The notes beneath the pieces are model-generated. The model made no database searches and was not told the DNA's origin. It saw only the letters and a program-made list of their open reading frames with translations. The translations under genes and the position numbers were made by a program. DNA of 64,000 nt from Albugo candida. Taxonomy: Eukaryota. The stretch lies in the NCBI GenBank assembly GCA_040437565.1, contig JBDOQK010000058.1, forward strand, positions 62,001 to 126,000. The letters are read 5' to 3'. Shown here in pieces: positions 1 through 63,866 of this stretch (position 1 is the stretch's first letter; every line of letters begins with the position of its first letter).

Positions 1-2915
1 CTTTGCTTCCTGCCGTCTAGGCATGTCATCAGATGATGATCTTCTAGCATAAAGCACCAGCTTGTCTTTGATTCATAAACTTTCACGGACCGCAGACATA
101 CATTACATATGGAATTTATGTACTCTATTCTAAATGAGGCTTTTCTTGCAGAAGTGGGTGAAGGAACGTTTTGTCCCATCTGCAATTTGATTATCAGCAC
201 TATCCGGGACCTGTTCAAATCGAAGTTTGGTTGCATATTCTACTCAATCCTCAAGCTGCTTGTTTCTGGCGATTTAGAGGTATCGCATTGCAATCAAAAA
301 CGCACTGACCGATCATACCCGGTTTTACTTTCTCAGTAACTGCTATATTCCTGGATTCCTTATAACTTTCCCGCCTGTGTTTGCACGTTGTCAGAGATGT
401 GTATGATAAACAAAGAAGCCGCTTCACATGGTATGCATAGGGTGCACATTAATATCACAAAGATTAGCAAGAGGGCGAGTAGTCGTTTCCAAATTCCCTT
501 ATTACCAGATCTCGTAAATGTATGCGTTCATAAATAGCGTGCACATTCCATAAAAGTCTGTCAACTTGTCAACTTCCAAGTACCTCTTCATGAATTATAT
601 CGAAGCGGTGAAGTTGTGTTTTGAACCAGCTCAAGAATGCTTGCATGTGAGAAATCATTACTTGGAAAGTCAGATGTTGTTTTTCTATTGACTCTCCTGT
701 TCTTGCTTCATATAGGCCTCTTCTTCGTACGAATTCTTATATGTCAGTCCACCACACGACCACTTTCATCATCAGTAAAGCAGAATTCTTTTTGCTAAAA
801 TTTCGTTATCACCTTGCATGACTCTATTAAGCTCCCATGCATCATAGTCAATAATTTGCAGGAAGCCAAAAGTATCCCGCTCAAATGCGTGGGCTAGCTA
901 AAGTCGACGAAGACGTATTTTACCGCAGTGGTCTAGCTCTCGATCAGAACTGCACGAATTTTGGCTAGTTCATTATTTACAGCGAAAAATGTCGATGCGA
1001 ACGGTGTCGCCAAATCTCTGCGCAGTTCCTGCACCCGAAGAAAAGATACCAGCGAAAAGAGCGGGAGAATAGCATTCGCAATTGGGGGAATCTCCAGAAA
1101 GCGCTCTGGCATCTCATTATTTTGCTTCTCATCTATACCAGAAGTAATATATAACCAAACATCTATATCGGAACTATTACATAGCGTCAATGCTTTTAAT
1201 AAGTTTTGAGGCGAACCTCAGTTATCTGGCATTTTTGCATGGAATCAGCGAGCAACTCGCTGCAGCATTTTACATGTCGATCCAAGCATTGATATGTGCT
1301 TGAGAATAGCCACGTCTCCTTCGTAGTAAGTATCATTTCGCGGGAATCAGATTTTGTAGTCTTGCGAGTCATACACAGTAGTGACCTGTCCGTCCTTGGA
1401 TGAGTGTCCGGTAAAATATGGAAGTGCCAGAAAAAGTTGCAAAGAACATCACTGAAGTTAAAATGAATTTGTATTTTTGGTTTCCAATTCTTGTGGAAAC
1501 GCCTAGACATTTGCATTCGGCTGAACACCCATCGTCTTTCACTAAATTGTCAATTTTCTTTCTTGCGAAATACCCACAGTTTTGCTTCACCACTTTCCTG
1601 TATCATGATAATCGTCTAGACTCATTCCAATCCAACCTCCATTCCTACTAGTTGGCTCTAAAATTAGTTACAGGTATCGGATTTAAAGGTGACTACGAAC
1701 CTAGTCACATTAAATTATCGTCCTGACAGCTTGATCCAGTAGAATCAAAATTCAGTGAAATGATTGACTTCTATCGAAGCTGACGCGTAGAATCTCAGTC
1801 TACATTTCGTATGTGACAATCTTGATGTATATGCCAACCGCATACGCATTCCTCGACAAGAAGCAATTTATAGTCATCCCAATATCCATATAGACAGCCG
1901 ATCATTATACTTTGCTGCAGTTGATCATCCATGCTGTTCTTTTTTCTTAAATTTGAAACAAGAGGTATCCTTGCTGCCTAAGACATGATTTTTTCAAGTG
2001 AAGGGCAATGATCGTATGGAATGATGAAACTCAGGTTCCTTGTATACGCTCCCGTTCGAGGACTTTTCTTCAATCAACTACTAATGTGTGATGATAGCAG
2101 AAGCTCTGCGTGTCGAAAAAGAGAAATCGTGTGTCATAAGCTGAAAGGAACTTTGTGCTTATTTTATCAGCCACAACCGATACTTTTCTATTCAAAGCCC
2201 ATCTGTACTGAGTTCTACCAATTGAAGCGAGTTACTAAGGAGCGCACCAAGTACGGCATGAGTAACCCGCGAATGGATGGTCTATATTAAGAAGAACTGT
2301 GTCTATCATACAGCATGTCAAGGCATGTAAATATCTTTTTTTGTGACGCACAAAGCTCCTTCCCGATACATATATCTTTGCTGGCACTTGAACGATGCAT
2401 CCGTGTCATCTGCTACACATGAATGCAAAATCCTACACTTTAGGTTTCCCGTTTTCTCGTGTCACAAGAGCTGAGGGATATATAAAGTATCGTGTGTAAG
2501 TACTCCGGAAAGATCCTCACATTTTGTACGCAAATCGTTTCATCGTCTACTGTTACTCGAGAGAGCGCACAGTGAGAAAGAATTATGGTATAGATCCGCA
2601 AACAAGATCGTGCTCCTTCGTTTGAGCGCTCAAACCATACGGAGTTCGTTTGTCTATGGTCGGTTCGAGATTTTGTAAGGCAAGACGCTGTAGCGTCTTT
2701 TATCGTAAATGCTCCTAGATTACTTATATTTATTGCTTTCCAAAACATAATGAAAAGTACTACCAGTCATTGCTGGCTGACAGTAAAAAAGTGACCCTTC
2801 GTGTTTCATCGAGCTTATTTGTAGGGAGAGTAATCAAAATATTCGCCAGGTACGCGACAAGCTCAAAATCGAATGAGACCACTGGCACGTTTGGACTGGC
2901 CCTGAACTTGTCCAT
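1..2915 (-). CDS. Probable multi-exon hypothetical gene running off the window start
   Basis: Several minus-strand ORF pieces (933-1190, 1196-1528, 2440-2748) with GT..AG-like short spacers, divergent from EBP2. No recognisable domain and the exon structure is not resolved. Confidence 0.3.
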
Positions 2916-58996: not shown

Positions 58997-59390
58997 TTAG
59001 GTACGATTTGAGCTCAAGTGATCGATTAAGTGCGAGGTATAGTGCAACGCATCAGCGTATACTTCAACAACGCCATCGATGTCACCCATCCCCGCCCATT
59101 CTTCAACCGAAGGACTACACACATCTGCGAGGTAAATTTGTATACAGATATACAGAAAAACTCGTATACTTTGCAAACTATTTTCATCACTAGAGNNNNN
59201 NNNNNNNNNNNNNNNNNNNNNNNNNNNNNNNNNNNNNNNNNNNNNNNNNNNNNNNNNNNNNNNNNNNNNNNNNNNNNNNNNNNNNNNNNNNNNNNAGGTA
59301 AATTTGTATACAGATATACAGAAAAACTCGTATACTTTGCAAACTATTTTCATCACTAGAGCAACGCTGCCTCATCTCGTTATATTTCAT
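58997..59390 (-). CDS. Possible small hypothetical protein
   Basis: Short spliceable ORF interrupted by a gap (MKYNEMRQR..|..EEWAGMGDIDGVVEVYADALHY). Confidence 0.25.
59130..59361. repeat. Gap-flanking direct duplication (59130-59195 = 59296-59361)
   Basis: 66 nt repeated across the gap at 59196-59295. Confidence 0.9.
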
Positions 59391-59575: not shown

Positions 59576-61396
59576 TCAGCTATCCAAAGCCAATGCCGGG
59601 CGCTTGGATGGCGGAATCATTGAAACTGACAATTCTGTAGGCATTGCGTCACCGTCTTTCGCTTTGTTGCACAAATACATTGCAACCGCAAACTCATCCT
59701 GATCAAGAAAACCATCCTTGTCCATATCAGCGAGCTCCCATATCGTCTTTAAAGCTTGCTGAGGGCACCCAGTTGCCTGCAGAGGAGCCATACAAATTGA
59801 GCCTGACGCTCGATTTGTCTGGGAATCAAGCTGCAAGGCCTGAAAAACGGCATCGAACTCCTCCTTAAACGGTGCGATATCCCAAATCGATTCGGCAGAT
59901 GCAAAGGGATTCGTAGTCGAAAAACTCGGCTGCCCATCAATAGCTTTGCCATCGTCCTTTTTTGGTAAAGCAGCCATCAGCTTTGGAATGTCTTTTGAAA
60001 GCAATTCATCGATTTCTTGTATTCCTTTCACATTCAAAGTAGCAAATTTTTGGAATTTGTGATCGATGAGTTTCTTCTGAAATTCGTCCAATTGCGGAAA
60101 ATCCCCAGGGGGAAGATGGTACCGTCGTTGCACTTCGCGGAAGGTTTCTCCGAGGTTCTCGATCAGTGCTTTTTGCTTCTTCTCCTTGCCAATCATCGCC
60201 GGCATTTTATCTCTCAAAACACCGATCAAGAAACAATGAACTTTAGCGAGACGAGCGCGTTTGACAAATTCATTGATTTTTCGTATGGCAGCGTTTTGAG
60301 GTAAATTACGCAGTTCGGTCAGCAAATCGTTTTCTTCTGCCTCAAATAACTCGGCGTTGTCGGTGAATGCCATTGGCTGATCCCAGAACGAGCCAATAAA
60401 AACACGCAAGACTTCTGGAGTTTTTAATACTTTTCCCATTGACCACATTAGTGCGCCGTACCTATTGGAGACTCATTAGGATCAGTGACTCGGAGTGGAA
60501 ATGATCAGAAAAAAGTGTGTGGTTTTTCATAGGCAAGAATGTGAATTCTCGAGCGCCTCAAAACCCCTGCGCAATGGGCGTTTTTCATCCTTTCATTTTA
60601 ATGGTACAAGTAACTTACACTCGCATGAGCCGCTGCCGATCGATTTGATCGGCTTTGTTGAGAACACATCGAATTTTATCATCGTGACCTACTCCAAGAA
60701 AGTAAGTGTCATAATTAATATACCTCAAGAAATAATAATACCTTTCAAAACCTCAATGACGCGCTGAAATTCGTCTGAAATATCTAATTTATGTGCGTCA
60801 AACAGTAGCAAGATCAAATCGGAGCGCTCTGCAAACCATCGAGCGACCTGTACGAAATCATAACCTCTTTGTATACGTTGCTTCTCACCCGATAAGATCC
60901 CTGGGGTGTCGATGACCGTAATATTTTCCAGCACTTTCGACGGCAATTGTGCGGCCTCAAATTTATTAAGGAATGCTGTTCCAAACATAGAGAGTCCTCC
61001 ATAAGGGAGATCGGGCGATACTGCAACCGCATTTCCAGGAATCGTGCGCTCTTCGTCTCCATACATAACTGCTACAAATCGGTCTGTCGTAGGCTCGGGG
61101 CCAATTCGTTGTCCAGGGAACGATCGACCCAATAAATACTCGATGAATGAAGTCTTACCGACAGAATACTGTCCAATCATAAGCACTTGAGGCTTCGCAT
61201 CAAAATCGGCATCACTCAACAACGGTGAATGAAACTCATCAAATTCGTATTTCTTTTCAAGAGGTCGGAGCTTTTGAGCGTAAAGTTTTTTGAGTCCATC
61301 GACAACAACTTTGCTTTTACTAACAACATCGACACCGTCTGCAGATAACAAAGCGCTCACGAGTCCAGAAACGGTACTTGCACTATGATCCGTCAT
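59576..61396 (-). CDS. EHD1: EH domain-containing ATPase (EHD1/RME-1)
   Basis: Three exons (introns 60689-60741 and 60462-60618). Motifs: GQYSVGKT, IGPEPTTDRF, DTPGILSGEKQR, LFDAHKLDISDE, FIGSFW, and the EH domain IWELADMDKDGFLDQDEFAVAM. Confidence 0.97.
60499..60598 (-). ncRNA. Intronic box C/D snoRNA, predicted guide for U6 snRNA 2'-O-methylation (C62, human numbering)
   Basis: Terminal stem AAAUGA/UCAUUU, C box AGGAUGA (60591-60585), D box CUGA (60508-60505), D' UUGA (60561-60558) preceded by UUGCGCAGGGG, which is complementary to U6 CCCCUGCGCAA. Confidence 0.8.
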
Positions 61397-61844
61397 CTTG
61401 CAGAGTTGAAGAGTCGCTTGCCGGGATCTTTTTTTAAGCGGTAGGTTGGGGCGACTGGTCAGCGAAAGGAGGGTATTCCGTAACCAGGATACATCTGCCT
61501 GAACGCGTAACCGACGAATGCTGAAATGAGTTGAGTTTGTGAAGTTCGTTATAGAGGGCGGCGAAATGGGTTCGCTGAGTCATTATATCGATAATCGGTG
61601 ATGATTGGACTAAATCAAGTATTGAGAAGCATCGAAACAGAAACTCGTCCCGGCCAGTACGCACTAAAAAGTACAGTTTGCACCGACGCAAGATATAAGC
61701 GCTATTTTTTTGATCACAGTAGTAGCGTGCAAAATGACAATACCTGAATGCAAATCTCACTCACAGTACCGAGGGTCGCGTGAGGAAGGTTACCACCACC
61801 CTAACCATTTTGAGAGTACAGGTGTACAGTTCCAATCTGATTCA

Positions 61845-63866
61845 ATGCGGAAGGAGGACGTCCCATGCGGGCGAAAAGGTACAACGGGCTGGAGCCGGAT
61901 GCAGCCTTCACACGTGACAAAGCATGGAGCAGCGCAGGAAAACAGCTCAGTCCTTTGCTTGATATGCTATGCTAATCATGTCAACGCTATCTTGGTACCA
62001 TGTCATCACCGATTTCATACGGGCTGTATACACAGCGAGTTAAAAAGCGGTCATTGTCCCGTTTGCCTGTCAGTGATCCAATCGGTACATCAATTGATAC
62101 TGCCAGAAGGACGGAGTACTAGAGCGAACTCAGAAGAGGACGTGGCGTGTGGTCGACCCACGGGGAATGGCTCGAATTACGCGATTACTTCGTCAGGTTA
62201 TGATTACAGCATTCATTCAGCAAACAGTGGTGAGGATGTGCAATCAACGGAGATTTTGAGGCGAGGGAAGTGGACTCGTGAGGAAAGTGAGTATTGTGAT
62301 CGACTGATTGAAGAATTCAAAAATGGTAATTTAGCACTCGCAGAAGGAACGACTTTACGTGCGTTTCTGTCAAGATTATTAAGGTGTGATCCCATGCGTA
62401 TATCTAAAAAGTATACTGGAGATCAGTGCATCGGAAAGGTATACTGTAACCTCACTTTTAAGAATTGTATCGTGTGTAACCTTATTTCTGATTCTACTCA
62501 GATCGTGTTTCGGAGAAAAGATCATGCAATTCCACAAGCCAAAATCGACAAAGCCCGTCACGATTTAGCAAAATTGGAAAAAGCATTTCTTGAACGTGAT
62601 CAGCTCAATCGACAGCGAAGAGAAAAACGGCTACGATGTCAATACAGCGATGAGACTTATCAGCCTCAGGTGTTTCGATACACTCAGAATCAGATTCCTG
62701 AATCTCACTATACATCTGCCTCAAACCTCACTTCAATGAATCTATCACGCAACGTACCCTTCACTTTGAATACCAATACATACATTATTCAGAATCAGAC
62801 TCAGACTCAGGACGCCAGGGTAAATGTGGAAAAAAATGAAGATATCAGTACGATACATCTTGCAGAAGCAAAGGCACCCAGTCTCAGCACATCCGTTAGC
62901 GCTATAGCACTTGCTTCCCTTGCACAAGATAGCTTAAACCCCTCTTGTATCTCTCAAATCGCATCCTTTGAGAATCTGGTCTCATTATTCCCTCGTGTCA
63001 CGTCGTTTGAGAATTTCGCGTTACTATCAGCTGGATCCAATACTCACATACAAAGCGGTCTGGATATCACAGAAGTATTCTCAGTATCCACAAGTGACTT
63101 TGAAAACTCCTTAGAACTTAAGAAAGAATCGGATTTTGCCTCGCATTCAATGGAACTACTTCTGACCAATTTGCATCCGCAACGAGCCAATATCTCCATA
63201 GAGCCACAAGATTCCGCATGGAAATCATCCAAATCCATTATGCATTTATCCCGATTTTCTGAAAATCCAGAACCATACGACCAAAAGGACGATACAAGTA
63301 TGGAAGACCTTACGGATAATGCAAGGCTGACTGAAATGAATAGACGGAAGCTATCAAATATGTCGGACTCTTCAACGAAGAAAGCCGCTTTAGAGACTGC
63401 TTCGAGCACAACCTCACTAGAAAAGTTATCGAGGATCGCCTCGAGCGATTTTCTAAGTCGTATCAACTCTGCGGATCATTTCACAACATTTGGTACAATG
63501 AGTAGTACATCATCTTATGGCTCTTTGACGAACCTCGTGGCATTTGGACGGTCTTGTCTACCACGTACTTCTTCGATAGAGGATATACTCTCGTTATTAG
63601 CTCCATCAGAAGCAAGTATGAGTACGAATTTTGGTCAAAATGAGACTCATGAGCGAATACATTTAGAATCTTGGAGTGAAGATAGCGTATCCGCTCTGAC
63701 TAGGAATAGTTTACAAGACGAAAAAAAAAGTGGTATGAATGAAGTGTCCGGCTACAGAAGCTTTGAGGAGACTGCAGCGACGCTACTTACGCTGGAAGGA
63801 GCACGATACATGAAGGGGAAGTCTGATCGACGAGATCTTGACAATATTTCAGATATAGACATGTAG
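61845..63866 (+). CDS. RING finger + stramenopile Myb-like (LRRGKW..CDPMRISKK) putative transcription regulator
   Basis: RING: CLIC..PCHHRFHTGC..CPVC. Myb-like: LRRGKWTREESEYCDRLIEEF..GTTLRAFLSRLLRCDPMRISKKY. In-frame intron at 62439-62501. The start codon is uncertain. Confidence 0.8.
   Translation: MRKEDVPCGRKGTTGWSRMQPSHVTKHGAAQENSSVLCLICYANHVNAILVPCHHRFHTGCIHSELKSGHCPVCLSVIQSVHQLILPEGRSTRANSEEDVACGRPTGNGSNYAITSSGYDYSIHSANSGEDVQSTEILRRGKWTREESEYCDRLIEEFKNGNLALAEGTTLRAFLSRLLRCDPMRISKKYTGDQCIGKVYCNLTFKNCIVCNLISDSTQIVFRRKDHAIPQAKIDKARHDLAKLEKAFLERDQLNRQRREKRLRCQYSDETYQPQVFRYTQNQIPESHYTSASNLTSMNLSRNVPFTLNTNTYIIQNQTQTQDARVNVEKNEDISTIHLAEAKAPSLSTSVSAIALASLAQDSLNPSCISQIASFENLVSLFPRVTSFENFALLSAGSNTHIQSGLDITEVFSVSTSDFENSLELKKESDFASHSMELLLTNLHPQRANISIEPQDSAWKSSKSIMHLSRFSENPEPYDQKDDTSMEDLTDNARLTEMNRRKLSNMSDSSTKKAALETASSTTSLEKLSRIASSDFLSRINSADHFTTFGTMSSTSSYGSLTNLVAFGRSCLPRTSSIEDILSLLAPSEASMSTNFGQNETHERIHLESWSEDSVSALTRNSLQDEKKSGMNEVSGYRSFEETAATLLTLEGARYMKGKSDRRDLDNISDIDM

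What the first reader, a model, noticed from the sequence alone, without database searches (positions are those of the whole stretch)
60499..60598. Unannotated box C/D snoRNA in an EHD1 intron predicted to methylate U6 snRNA C62
Seen: EHD1 intron 2 is 157 nt, whereas most introns here are ~50-60 nt. It contains a 6-bp terminal stem, C and D boxes in k-turn geometry, and an 11-nt perfect complement (plus two G-U pairs) to the conserved U6 ISL sequence GGCCCCUGCGCAA just upstream of D'. The D+5 rule points to C62 (human numbering, U6 sequence recalled from memory). Established: human U6 Cm62 is guided by SNORD94. Inference: U6 ISL methylation guidance exists in oomycetes, hosted in an endocytosis gene. 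The segment before box D (ACCACACACUUUUUU) may be a second, orphan guide.
Basis: partly seen in the sequence, partly recalled or inferred. Interest (0 to 1): 0.75.

Follow-up and report, generated by a model that had tools for sequence, protein, structure and literature searches.

The report
Intronic guide RNA for U6 methylation
An intron of an oomycete endocytosis gene holds what is very probably a small guide RNA that directs a methyl mark onto the catalytic stem-loop of the splicing RNA U6, a job known from a human RNA but not, as far as we could find, described in this group of organisms.

Summary
Observation confirmed. RNA contigs splice the 157-nt EHD intron exactly. On the sense strand it holds a 6-bp terminal stem, boxes C and D, and 11 Watson-Crick plus 2 G-U pairs to the host's own U6, in 4 of 5 distinct U6-like loci. 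D+5 gives the C62 equivalent. Chance is unlikely: this was the only such k-turn with a stem of 5 bp or more in 455 kb, and the guide matched in 57 of 100,000 shuffles. I add an internal C'/D' k-turn and a possible second 9-bp grip on U6 67-75 (about 1-5% by chance). The 'second orphan guide' has no support. Not shown: expression, methylation, conservation of the intron sequence. It works like human SNORD94 but fails the Rfam family test. C62 equivalents are methylated in Arabidopsis, and apparently fission yeast, with no guide assigned. The scan noted SNORD94-like guides before on other DNA. New member of a known kind; real snoRNA about 0.9, C62 target about 0.8.

The parts
59576..61396 (-). 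Host gene: EHD (EH-domain dynamin-like ATPase), three coding exons 61396-60742, 60688-60619, 60461-59576, about 536 aa; start codon inferred
   Evidence: ORFs; Pfam; homologues; splice joints
60689..60741 (-). Intron 1, 53 nt
   Evidence: skipped in contigs of X4 and X8
60462..60618 (-). Intron 2, 157 nt, GT-AG; host intron = 20-nt 5' flank + 100-nt element + 37-nt 3' flank
60499..60598 (-). Predicted box C/D snoRNA, 100 nt including terminal stem
   Evidence: below-threshold Rfam C/D model RF00353 spans 60498-60599 (17.4 bits, E 3.6)
60593..60598 (-). 5' arm of 6-bp terminal stem (pairs with 60499-60504)
60585..60591 (-). Box C (AGGAUGA; G instead of U at position 2), after a 3-nt bulge in k-turn geometry
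   Evidence: sequence
60562..60574 (-). Guide: 11 Watson-Crick pairs to U6 60-70 plus two G-U pairs to G58/G59 (human-equivalent numbers); D+5 = C62
   Evidence: duplex including a small 5' extension -28.0 kcal/mol
60558..60561 (-). Box D' (UUGA)
   Evidence: sequence
60532..60557 (-). Stem-loop between D' and C' (3-bp stem I plus 6-bp hairpin)
   Evidence: pair probabilities 0.85-0.90 and 0.68-0.99
60533..60541 (-). Candidate accessory pairing element, 9 bp (one G-U) to U6 67-75, the 3' strand of the ISL
   Evidence: reached by 112 of 4000 loop shuffles and 49 of 4000 genomic 26-mers against U6 38-90
60524..60530 (-). Box C' (AUGAAAA) after a 3-nt bulge; its A-run pairs with the U's of D', replacing the consensus U-U and G-C pairs
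60509..60523 (-).
   Evidence: rRNA not available
60505..60508 (-). Box D (CUGA)
60499..60504 (-). 3' arm of terminal stem
60475..60479 (-). Branch-point-like CUAAU in the 3' flank (inferred from the motif, consensus recalled)
   Evidence: sequence printed

Best explanation
The intron encodes a single-guide box C/D snoRNA (or scaRNA-like guide). Shown: the host pre-mRNA is transcribed and the intron is removed; the boxes, stems and U6 complement are in the sequence. Inferred from the known pathway: the lariat is debranched and trimmed to the terminal stem (about 90-100 nt); Snu13, Nop56, Nop58 and fibrillarin assemble on the C/D and C'/D' k-turns; the guide before D' pairs with U6 58/60-70, opens the internal stem-loop (ISL), and fibrillarin 2'-O-methylates the C62 equivalent. 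A 9-nt element between D' and C' may first dock on U6 67-75 and help open the ISL (weaker inference). Its output would follow EHD transcription.
For: Splicing. Target present in the host's U6. The guide 11-mer occurs 9 times in the genome: 4 U6 antisense, this one, and 4 others with no D' box after them, all four in open frames over 100 codons. Only terminal k-turn with a stem of 5 bp or more in 455,112 bases, both strands. Of 735 real C..D motif pairs, the 2 with an 11-nt U6 guide are both this element. 57 of 100,000 interior shuffles reach 11 nt against U6, and 79 of 10,000 against a random 6.5-kb target. Strict internal C'/D' geometry in 9 of 100,000 shuffles and 5 of 735 real pairs, this one included. 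As a control, 0 of 11 chance U6 10-mers followed by TGA had both a C box upstream and a D box downstream. C62 is a known methylated site guided by SNORD94 in human (PMC6894857). The Arabidopsis site C57 maps to it in the only offset fitting 7 of 7 sites, and S. pombe C56 in the only offset fitting 5 of 5. U at the last guide position is the preferred base in active yeast guides (PMC5389607 section 11).
Against: No direct evidence of the small RNA or the methyl group. No orthologous intron sequence was available: 0 of 9 metagenome EHD loci looked oomycete or had an intron at this site. No Rfam family reaches its threshold, and the SNORD94 model does not hit this locus even at E up to 10. Box C departs from consensus at the flipped-out U. 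With lenient rules the internal k-turn is common (109 of 735), and the test was designed after seeing the sequence. Protein-free folding is unremarkable (z -0.61) and stem II pairs have low probability (0.01-0.25). No other U6 guide was found in the genome.
Confidence: 0.78

Rival explanations
1. Real snoRNA, but the register slips: D' lacks its 5' C and sits in a U-run that pairs with an A-run in C', so a 5-nt D' form would methylate C63 as well as, or instead of, C62.
For: In yeast U18, a non-C first D' base and a U at the last guide position let stem II form two ways and modify two adjacent nucleotides (PMC5389607 section 9). Here both bases are U and stem II is a homopolymer A-U helix. C63 is also methylated in human U6 (PMC8599867) and its equivalent in S. 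pombe.
Against: U18's C' has an inserted base, which this C' lacks. Arabidopsis shows only the C62 equivalent in this run. No experimental data.
Confidence: 0.2
2. Chance assembly of motifs, or a decayed snoRNA remnant, in a somewhat long intron.
For: 11-mers are common (4 unrelated genomic copies). Box C and D' are both non-consensus. No Rfam hit. No expression or conservation shown. The scan reads very many windows.
Against: My estimate is about 10-25 chance 6-bp terminal k-turns per genome times 5.7e-4, about 0.01 expected, before counting the internal k-turn, the intronic sense position or the hit on a known methylated site. No second copy exists that could be the live gene.
Confidence: 0.1
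3. Dual-guide snoRNA: the segment before box D guides a second methylation in rRNA or another snRNA.
For: Box D is perfect, and dual guides are common (recalled).
Against: The six bases nearest box D are all U, so the D+5 pair would sit in a weak U-run. That run can also pair with the A-run after box C (sequence; probability only 0.01 in protein-free folding). Best U6 pairing is 6 bp, out of register. Host rRNA and other snRNAs were not tested.
Confidence: 0.12
4. The U6 complement acts in cis, in the pre-mRNA, to slow or tune splicing of this intron, and no snoRNP is made.
For: The sequence is antisense to the catalytic ISL and lies in an intron.
Against: Would not need boxes C, D, C', D' or terminal stems. 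The laid contigs show clean splicing (contigs drop rare forms).
Confidence: 0.02

Closest known systems
SNORD94 (U94; Rfam RF00613), vertebrate box C/D guide for U6 Cm62
   Same: Same predicted target nucleotide (PMC6894857 passages). The guide lies in the 5' half just after box C, as the SNORD94 5' primer in PMC6124571 shows (passage). Pairs with the same ISL stretch.
   Different: 100 nt against a 137-position model. No RF00613 match at this locus. 10-nt spacer between box C and guide. Non-consensus box C. Host gene is EHD. Homology beyond the target-imposed guide cannot be shown.
Unassigned U6 ISL methylations of Arabidopsis (C57) and S. pombe (C55-C57)
   Same: They map to human C62 and C61-C63, the site this RNA targets.
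   Different: No guide is listed for At C57 in Table 3 of PMC8053127 (its Table S12 was not reached), and none could be found for S. pombe C55-C57 (PMC10484740). Here a candidate guide is in hand but the methylation is not measured.
Yeast snoRNAs with accessory pairing between D' and C' (e.g. snR70) and with unusual C'/D' motifs (U18, snR48)
   Same: Accessory elements lie mainly between D' and C', pair next to the target and may overlap it by up to 5 nt (PMC3116282); here the overlap is 4 nt. Non-C first D' base as in U18.
   Different: Those act on rRNA and were defined by conservation. Here the element is a single-sequence prediction, partly tied up in a hairpin (-4.9 kcal/mol against -12.6 for the U6 duplex).
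Other U6 guides: snoZ30/SNORD7 (RF00288), snoU6-53 (RF00377), S. pombe sno530
   Same: Box C/D guides for U6; sno530 also has a box C one base off consensus.
   Different: Different target sites (A47, A53, A70 equivalents); the two Rfam models gave no over-threshold hit in this genome.

Membership tests
Box C/D snoRNA (class) | Box C near the 5' end and box D near the 3' end, closed by a terminal stem in k-turn geometry | tested here: met
   6-bp stem, 3-nt bulge, box C 6 of 7, box D 4 of 4; unique in 455 kb at 5 bp or more
Box C/D snoRNA (class) | Internal C'/D' motif | tested here: met
   Tandem GA dinucleotides, stem I and paired stem II; strict geometry in 5 of 735 real pairs, lenient in 109 of 735
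Box C/D snoRNA (class) | Guide of 10 nt or more complementary to a cellular RNA just upstream of D or D' | tested here: met
   11 WC + 2 G-U to host U6; 57 of 100,000 shuffles
Box C/D snoRNA (class) | Stable small RNA bound by Snu13/Nop56/Nop58/fibrillarin | not testable with these tools
   Only contigs were served; no cover over the intron in 4 of 4 runs laid, which is uninformative
Box C/D snoRNA (class) | Boxes and guide conserved in relatives | tested here: inconclusive
   Intron position kept in a relative about 91% identical in exons (X8), but its intron sequence was not seen; no oomycete locus; no look-alike
SNORD94 (RF00613) | Guide directing 2'-O-methylation to U6 C62 by the D+5 rule | tested here: met
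   Prediction only:
SNORD94 (RF00613) | Match to the covariance model at the 60-bit gathering score | tested here: not met
   No hit at this locus at gathering score or E up to 10
SNORD94 (RF00613) | Methylation of C62 depends on the RNA | not testable with these tools
   Needs RiboMeth-seq and depletion
LARP7-dependent U6 guide snoRNAs | Host has a LARP7 with xRRM that binds the snoRNA | tested here: inconclusive
   L075 has a La motif and an RRM whose best La-family PDB match is LARP7 (E 5.7e-8), but no xRRM was found in the 5 of its 6 frames scanned that lack the La motif, nor in that one; a longer-homologue search found nothing

The most novel reading that the evidence does not exclude
One oomycete snoRNA grips both strands of the U6 ISL (main guide on 58-70, accessory element on 67-75) and, through a slippery all-A-U C'/D' stem, writes both Cm62 and Cm63. 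It would be a lineage-independent solution for an ISL modification that goes back to early eukaryotes, and a template for finding the missing plant and fission-yeast guides.
Probability: 0.15. Interest if true: 0.65.

Novelty: new member of a known kind. Interest (0 to 1): 0.42.

Why it matters
In human U6, Cm62 and Cm63 sit opposite G72 in the catalytic stem-loop and together license m2G72 (PMC13109388, passages). That paper suggests the ISL guides co-evolved with the U6 of 'higher' eukaryotes. A C62 guide in a stramenopile, together with the unguided equivalents in plants and fission yeast, would make Cm62 an ancient mark that predates the vertebrate-only THUMPD2 step (PMC11014329; no THUMPD2-like gene seen here). 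It gives a direct test (RiboMeth-seq of oomycete U6) and a search pattern for orphan sites. It does not change the mechanism of snoRNA action.

Tried and rejected
Rfam: no hit at gathering score in the window. In 501 bp, one chance bacterial sRNA hit. In 116 bp, 3 of 4 weak hits were C/D families, none significant. SNORD94, snoZ30 and snoU6-53 models on the own genome gave 4, 3 and 4 weak hits; all 11 were inspected, the best U6 complement was 9 nt, and none was convincing. A47-type pattern: 11 hits, 0 with both boxes; G-U pairs or odd D' boxes would be missed, so this does not show absence. Paralogue search: only the locus itself. Conservation: 9 metagenome EHD loci, none oomycete by best hit, none with an intron at this codon, none with the guide core on the sense strand. 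The 34 of the first 35 homologues in which both anchor motifs were found show no read-through insert at the site (one search was a faulty first try). Sequencing runs: no RNA holder on record among 19 listed. 4 of 19 were laid; none covered the intron, which says nothing on expression. rRNA targets: only a 180-nt LSU fragment and no SSU in the assembly, so the D-side segment could not be tested. THUMPD2: PF01170 found a TRM11-like gene (my reading of the sequence) and a TGS1-like cap methyltransferase; weak negative, since introns can hide domains. Intron-length test inconclusive. Literature: searches 'snoRNAs + oomycete + box C' (9 papers), 'Albugo + snoRNA' (10) and 'Phytophthora/snoRNA/U6 snRNA/fibrillarin' (20 of 179 listed) showed no description of an oomycete U6 guide in titles or abstract starts. 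PMC6461891 passages had nothing relevant. Subscription journals are not covered, and the LARP7 papers of 2020 could be seen only as citations.

Full report
1. What is there. The window lies in a 36.6-Mb genome. The gene at 59576-61396 on the minus strand is an EHD protein (Pfam EHD_N, Dynamin_N, DUF5600, EH) whose best homologues are oomycete proteins at 69% identity. Earlier scan notes call the genome Albugo candida (not tested here). Intron 2 runs 60462-60618, 157 nt, GT..AG. Four of 19 listed runs were laid. Contigs of X4 (identical to the window) and X8 (51 other letters in about 590, a relative) skip both this intron and the 53-nt intron 1; X9 and X10 did not reach them. So the intron is real and its position is kept in a relative, whose intron sequence was not seen. 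The element has 20 nt before it and 37 nt after it; these flanks sum to 57 nt, close to the 53-nt neighbour, as if a 100-nt unit sat in an ordinary short intron. That most introns are 50-60 nt was not established (weak peak only).

2. Anatomy. On the sense strand, 60598-60499: a 6-bp terminal stem (pair probabilities 0.51-0.98), a 3-nt bulge, box C (one base off consensus, G at the flipped-out position; such a G is tolerated in U3 box C', recalled), a 10-nt spacer, the guide, D' UUGA, a stem-loop (probabilities 0.68-0.99), a second 3-nt bulge, C' AUGAAAA, a 15-nt segment ending in six U, box D, and the 3' arm. D' and C' face each other with tandem GA dinucleotides, and the two consensus stem II pairs are replaced by A-U pairs on both sides. 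Overall folding is not better than shuffles (z -0.61), and stem II pairs are improbable without protein (0.01-0.25); the folding program does not model sheared G-A pairs.

3. Target. The genome has five distinct U6-like loci over the Rfam cut-off. Four carry the target; the guide makes 11 Watson-Crick and 2 G-U pairs with each, and the diverged L005 has no such match. With the first A of ACAGAGA set to 41, all ten human positions checked agree with the host letters, and the fifth pair from D' is C62. Human U6 has eight 2'-O-methyl sites including C60, C62 and C63 (PMC8599867, passages). SNORD94 guides C62 and its knockdown lowers the mark (PMC6894857, passages). Arabidopsis U6 is methylated at C57 with no guide in Table 3 (PMC8053127, passages; supplement searched but cut, Table S12 not seen). 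Seven of its eight sites were mapped (G84, outside the shared core, was left out), and only offset +5 fits 7 of 7, making C57 = C62. In S. pombe no guide was found for C55, C56 and C57 (PMC10484740, passages; evidence is stated there for C57), which map to C61-C63 (5 of 5).

4. More than chance. The 11-mer alone proves little: 9 genomic copies, 4 of them U6 antisense, 1 this locus, and 4 unrelated with no D' after them. The combination is rare. In 455,112 bases (40 ten-kb stretches and the window), both strands, terminal k-turns numbered 2 with a stem of 4 bp or more and 1 (this one) with 5 or more. Among 735 C..D pairs without a stem requirement, 2 had an 11-nt U6 guide, and both contain this guide. 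Interior shuffles reached 11 nt in 57 of 100,000 against U6 and 79 of 10,000 against random 6.5-kb targets, which allows for a reader trying all rRNA and snRNA. The strict internal k-turn arose in 9 of 100,000 shuffles and 5 of 735 real pairs (this one included); a lenient version arose in 109 of 735, so it adds a factor between about 0.005 and 0.15. Extrapolating the stem-length counts gives roughly 10-25 chance 6-bp k-turns per genome and about 0.01 with such a U6 guide (my estimate). These tests were framed after seeing the sequence.

5. A possible second grip. Bases 60541-60533, between D' and C', pair over 9 bp (one G-U) with U6 67-75, the other strand of the ISL, in all four U6 copies. 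Chance rates: 112 of 4000 loop shuffles and 49 of 4000 genomic 26-mers against U6 38-90, and 203 of 4000 against all of U6. Yeast and human C/D RNAs carry such accessory elements mainly between D' and C'; they can overlap the guide target and raise methylation up to five-fold (PMC3116282, passages). This is suggestive only. The element overlaps the main target by 4 nt and competes with the internal hairpin; a two-strand fold kept the hairpin and used the main guide alone.

6. Not supported. Its six D-proximal bases are U, its best pairing to U6 is 6 bp and out of register, and rRNA is not in the assembly. It remains untested against rRNA and the other snRNAs.

7. Mechanism. Shown: transcription and splicing of the host intron, the motifs, the complement. 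Inferred from the established C/D pathway (PMC5389607 introduction): release from the lariat, trimming, assembly with Snu13, Nop56, Nop58 and fibrillarin, pairing with U6, methylation five pairs from D'. Less sure: accessory docking, and register slip to C63 as in U18, where a non-C first D' base and a U before it give two adjacent marks (sections 9 and 11 read). Partners in the host: a La-motif/RRM gene resembling LARP7 without a detected xRRM, beside a genuine La, and no THUMPD2-like gene, in line with THUMPD2 being vertebrate-specific (PMC11014329, passages). So the Cm62/Cm63-to-m2G72 circuit of PMC13109388 (passages) is probably not present here.

8. Against. No small-RNA or methylation data. 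No orthologous intron sequence. No Rfam membership. No companion A47 or A53 guide found, although those searches are insensitive to divergent guides.

9. Known or new. It works like SNORD94, with the guide on the same side (PMC6124571, passages), but is not filed under RF00613 because the model test failed; common descent and convergence cannot be told apart. Three literature searches showed no oomycete U6 guide in their listings. The scan has noted SNORD94-like guides on other DNA, in an animal and in an unidentified freshwater eukaryote, and several other U6 guides in fungi and a Perkinsus-like genome (unchecked notes). Verdict: very probably a real intronic C/D snoRNA (about 0.9), aimed at U6 C62 (about 0.8), a new member of a known kind in an unsampled lineage. 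Interest 0.42.

Noticed in passing
L075 (G000:C6:396678-399818), locus positions about 806-1689, minus strand: La-motif plus RRM gene whose best La-family PDB match is LARP7; the frame stops soon after the RRM and no xRRM was detected, so it may be a truncated LARP7-like gene or have exons I missed.
   Followed up: partly
L001 (G000:C496:1330-1469): A full U6 on the minus strand overlaps a partial U6 (model 1-52) on the plus strand at the contig end, head to head; probably an assembly fold-back.
   Followed up: no
L003 and L004, 70 bases upstream of U6: These two U6 copies share a similar upstream sequence unlike that of L002 and carry point changes; it looks tRNA- or SINE-like by eye, so they may be linked genes or retroposed copies.
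   Followed up: no
L005 (G000:C2838:394-496): Strongly diverged U6-like sequence (50.8 bits) with altered ACAGAGA region and ISL; scored as U6, not U6atac. Pseudogene, or another organism's contig.
   Followed up: partly
window 59133-59361: About 63 bases are repeated on both sides of the run of N at 59196-59295, an assembly gap artefact.
   Followed up: no
window 61668-63866, plus strand: Neighbouring divergent gene: RING-like Cys/His motif followed by a Myb-like segment (my reading of the translation), with a likely intron near 62440-62500.
   Followed up: no
window 60482-60485, minus strand: A second CUGA lies in the 3' flank, 23 nt after box D; it has no terminal stem with box C and may be an alternative branch-point-like motif.
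   Followed up: partly
L089 and L090 (G000:C25 near 5760 and 244628): Two near-identical coding stretches on the same contig, a recent gene duplication.
   Followed up: no
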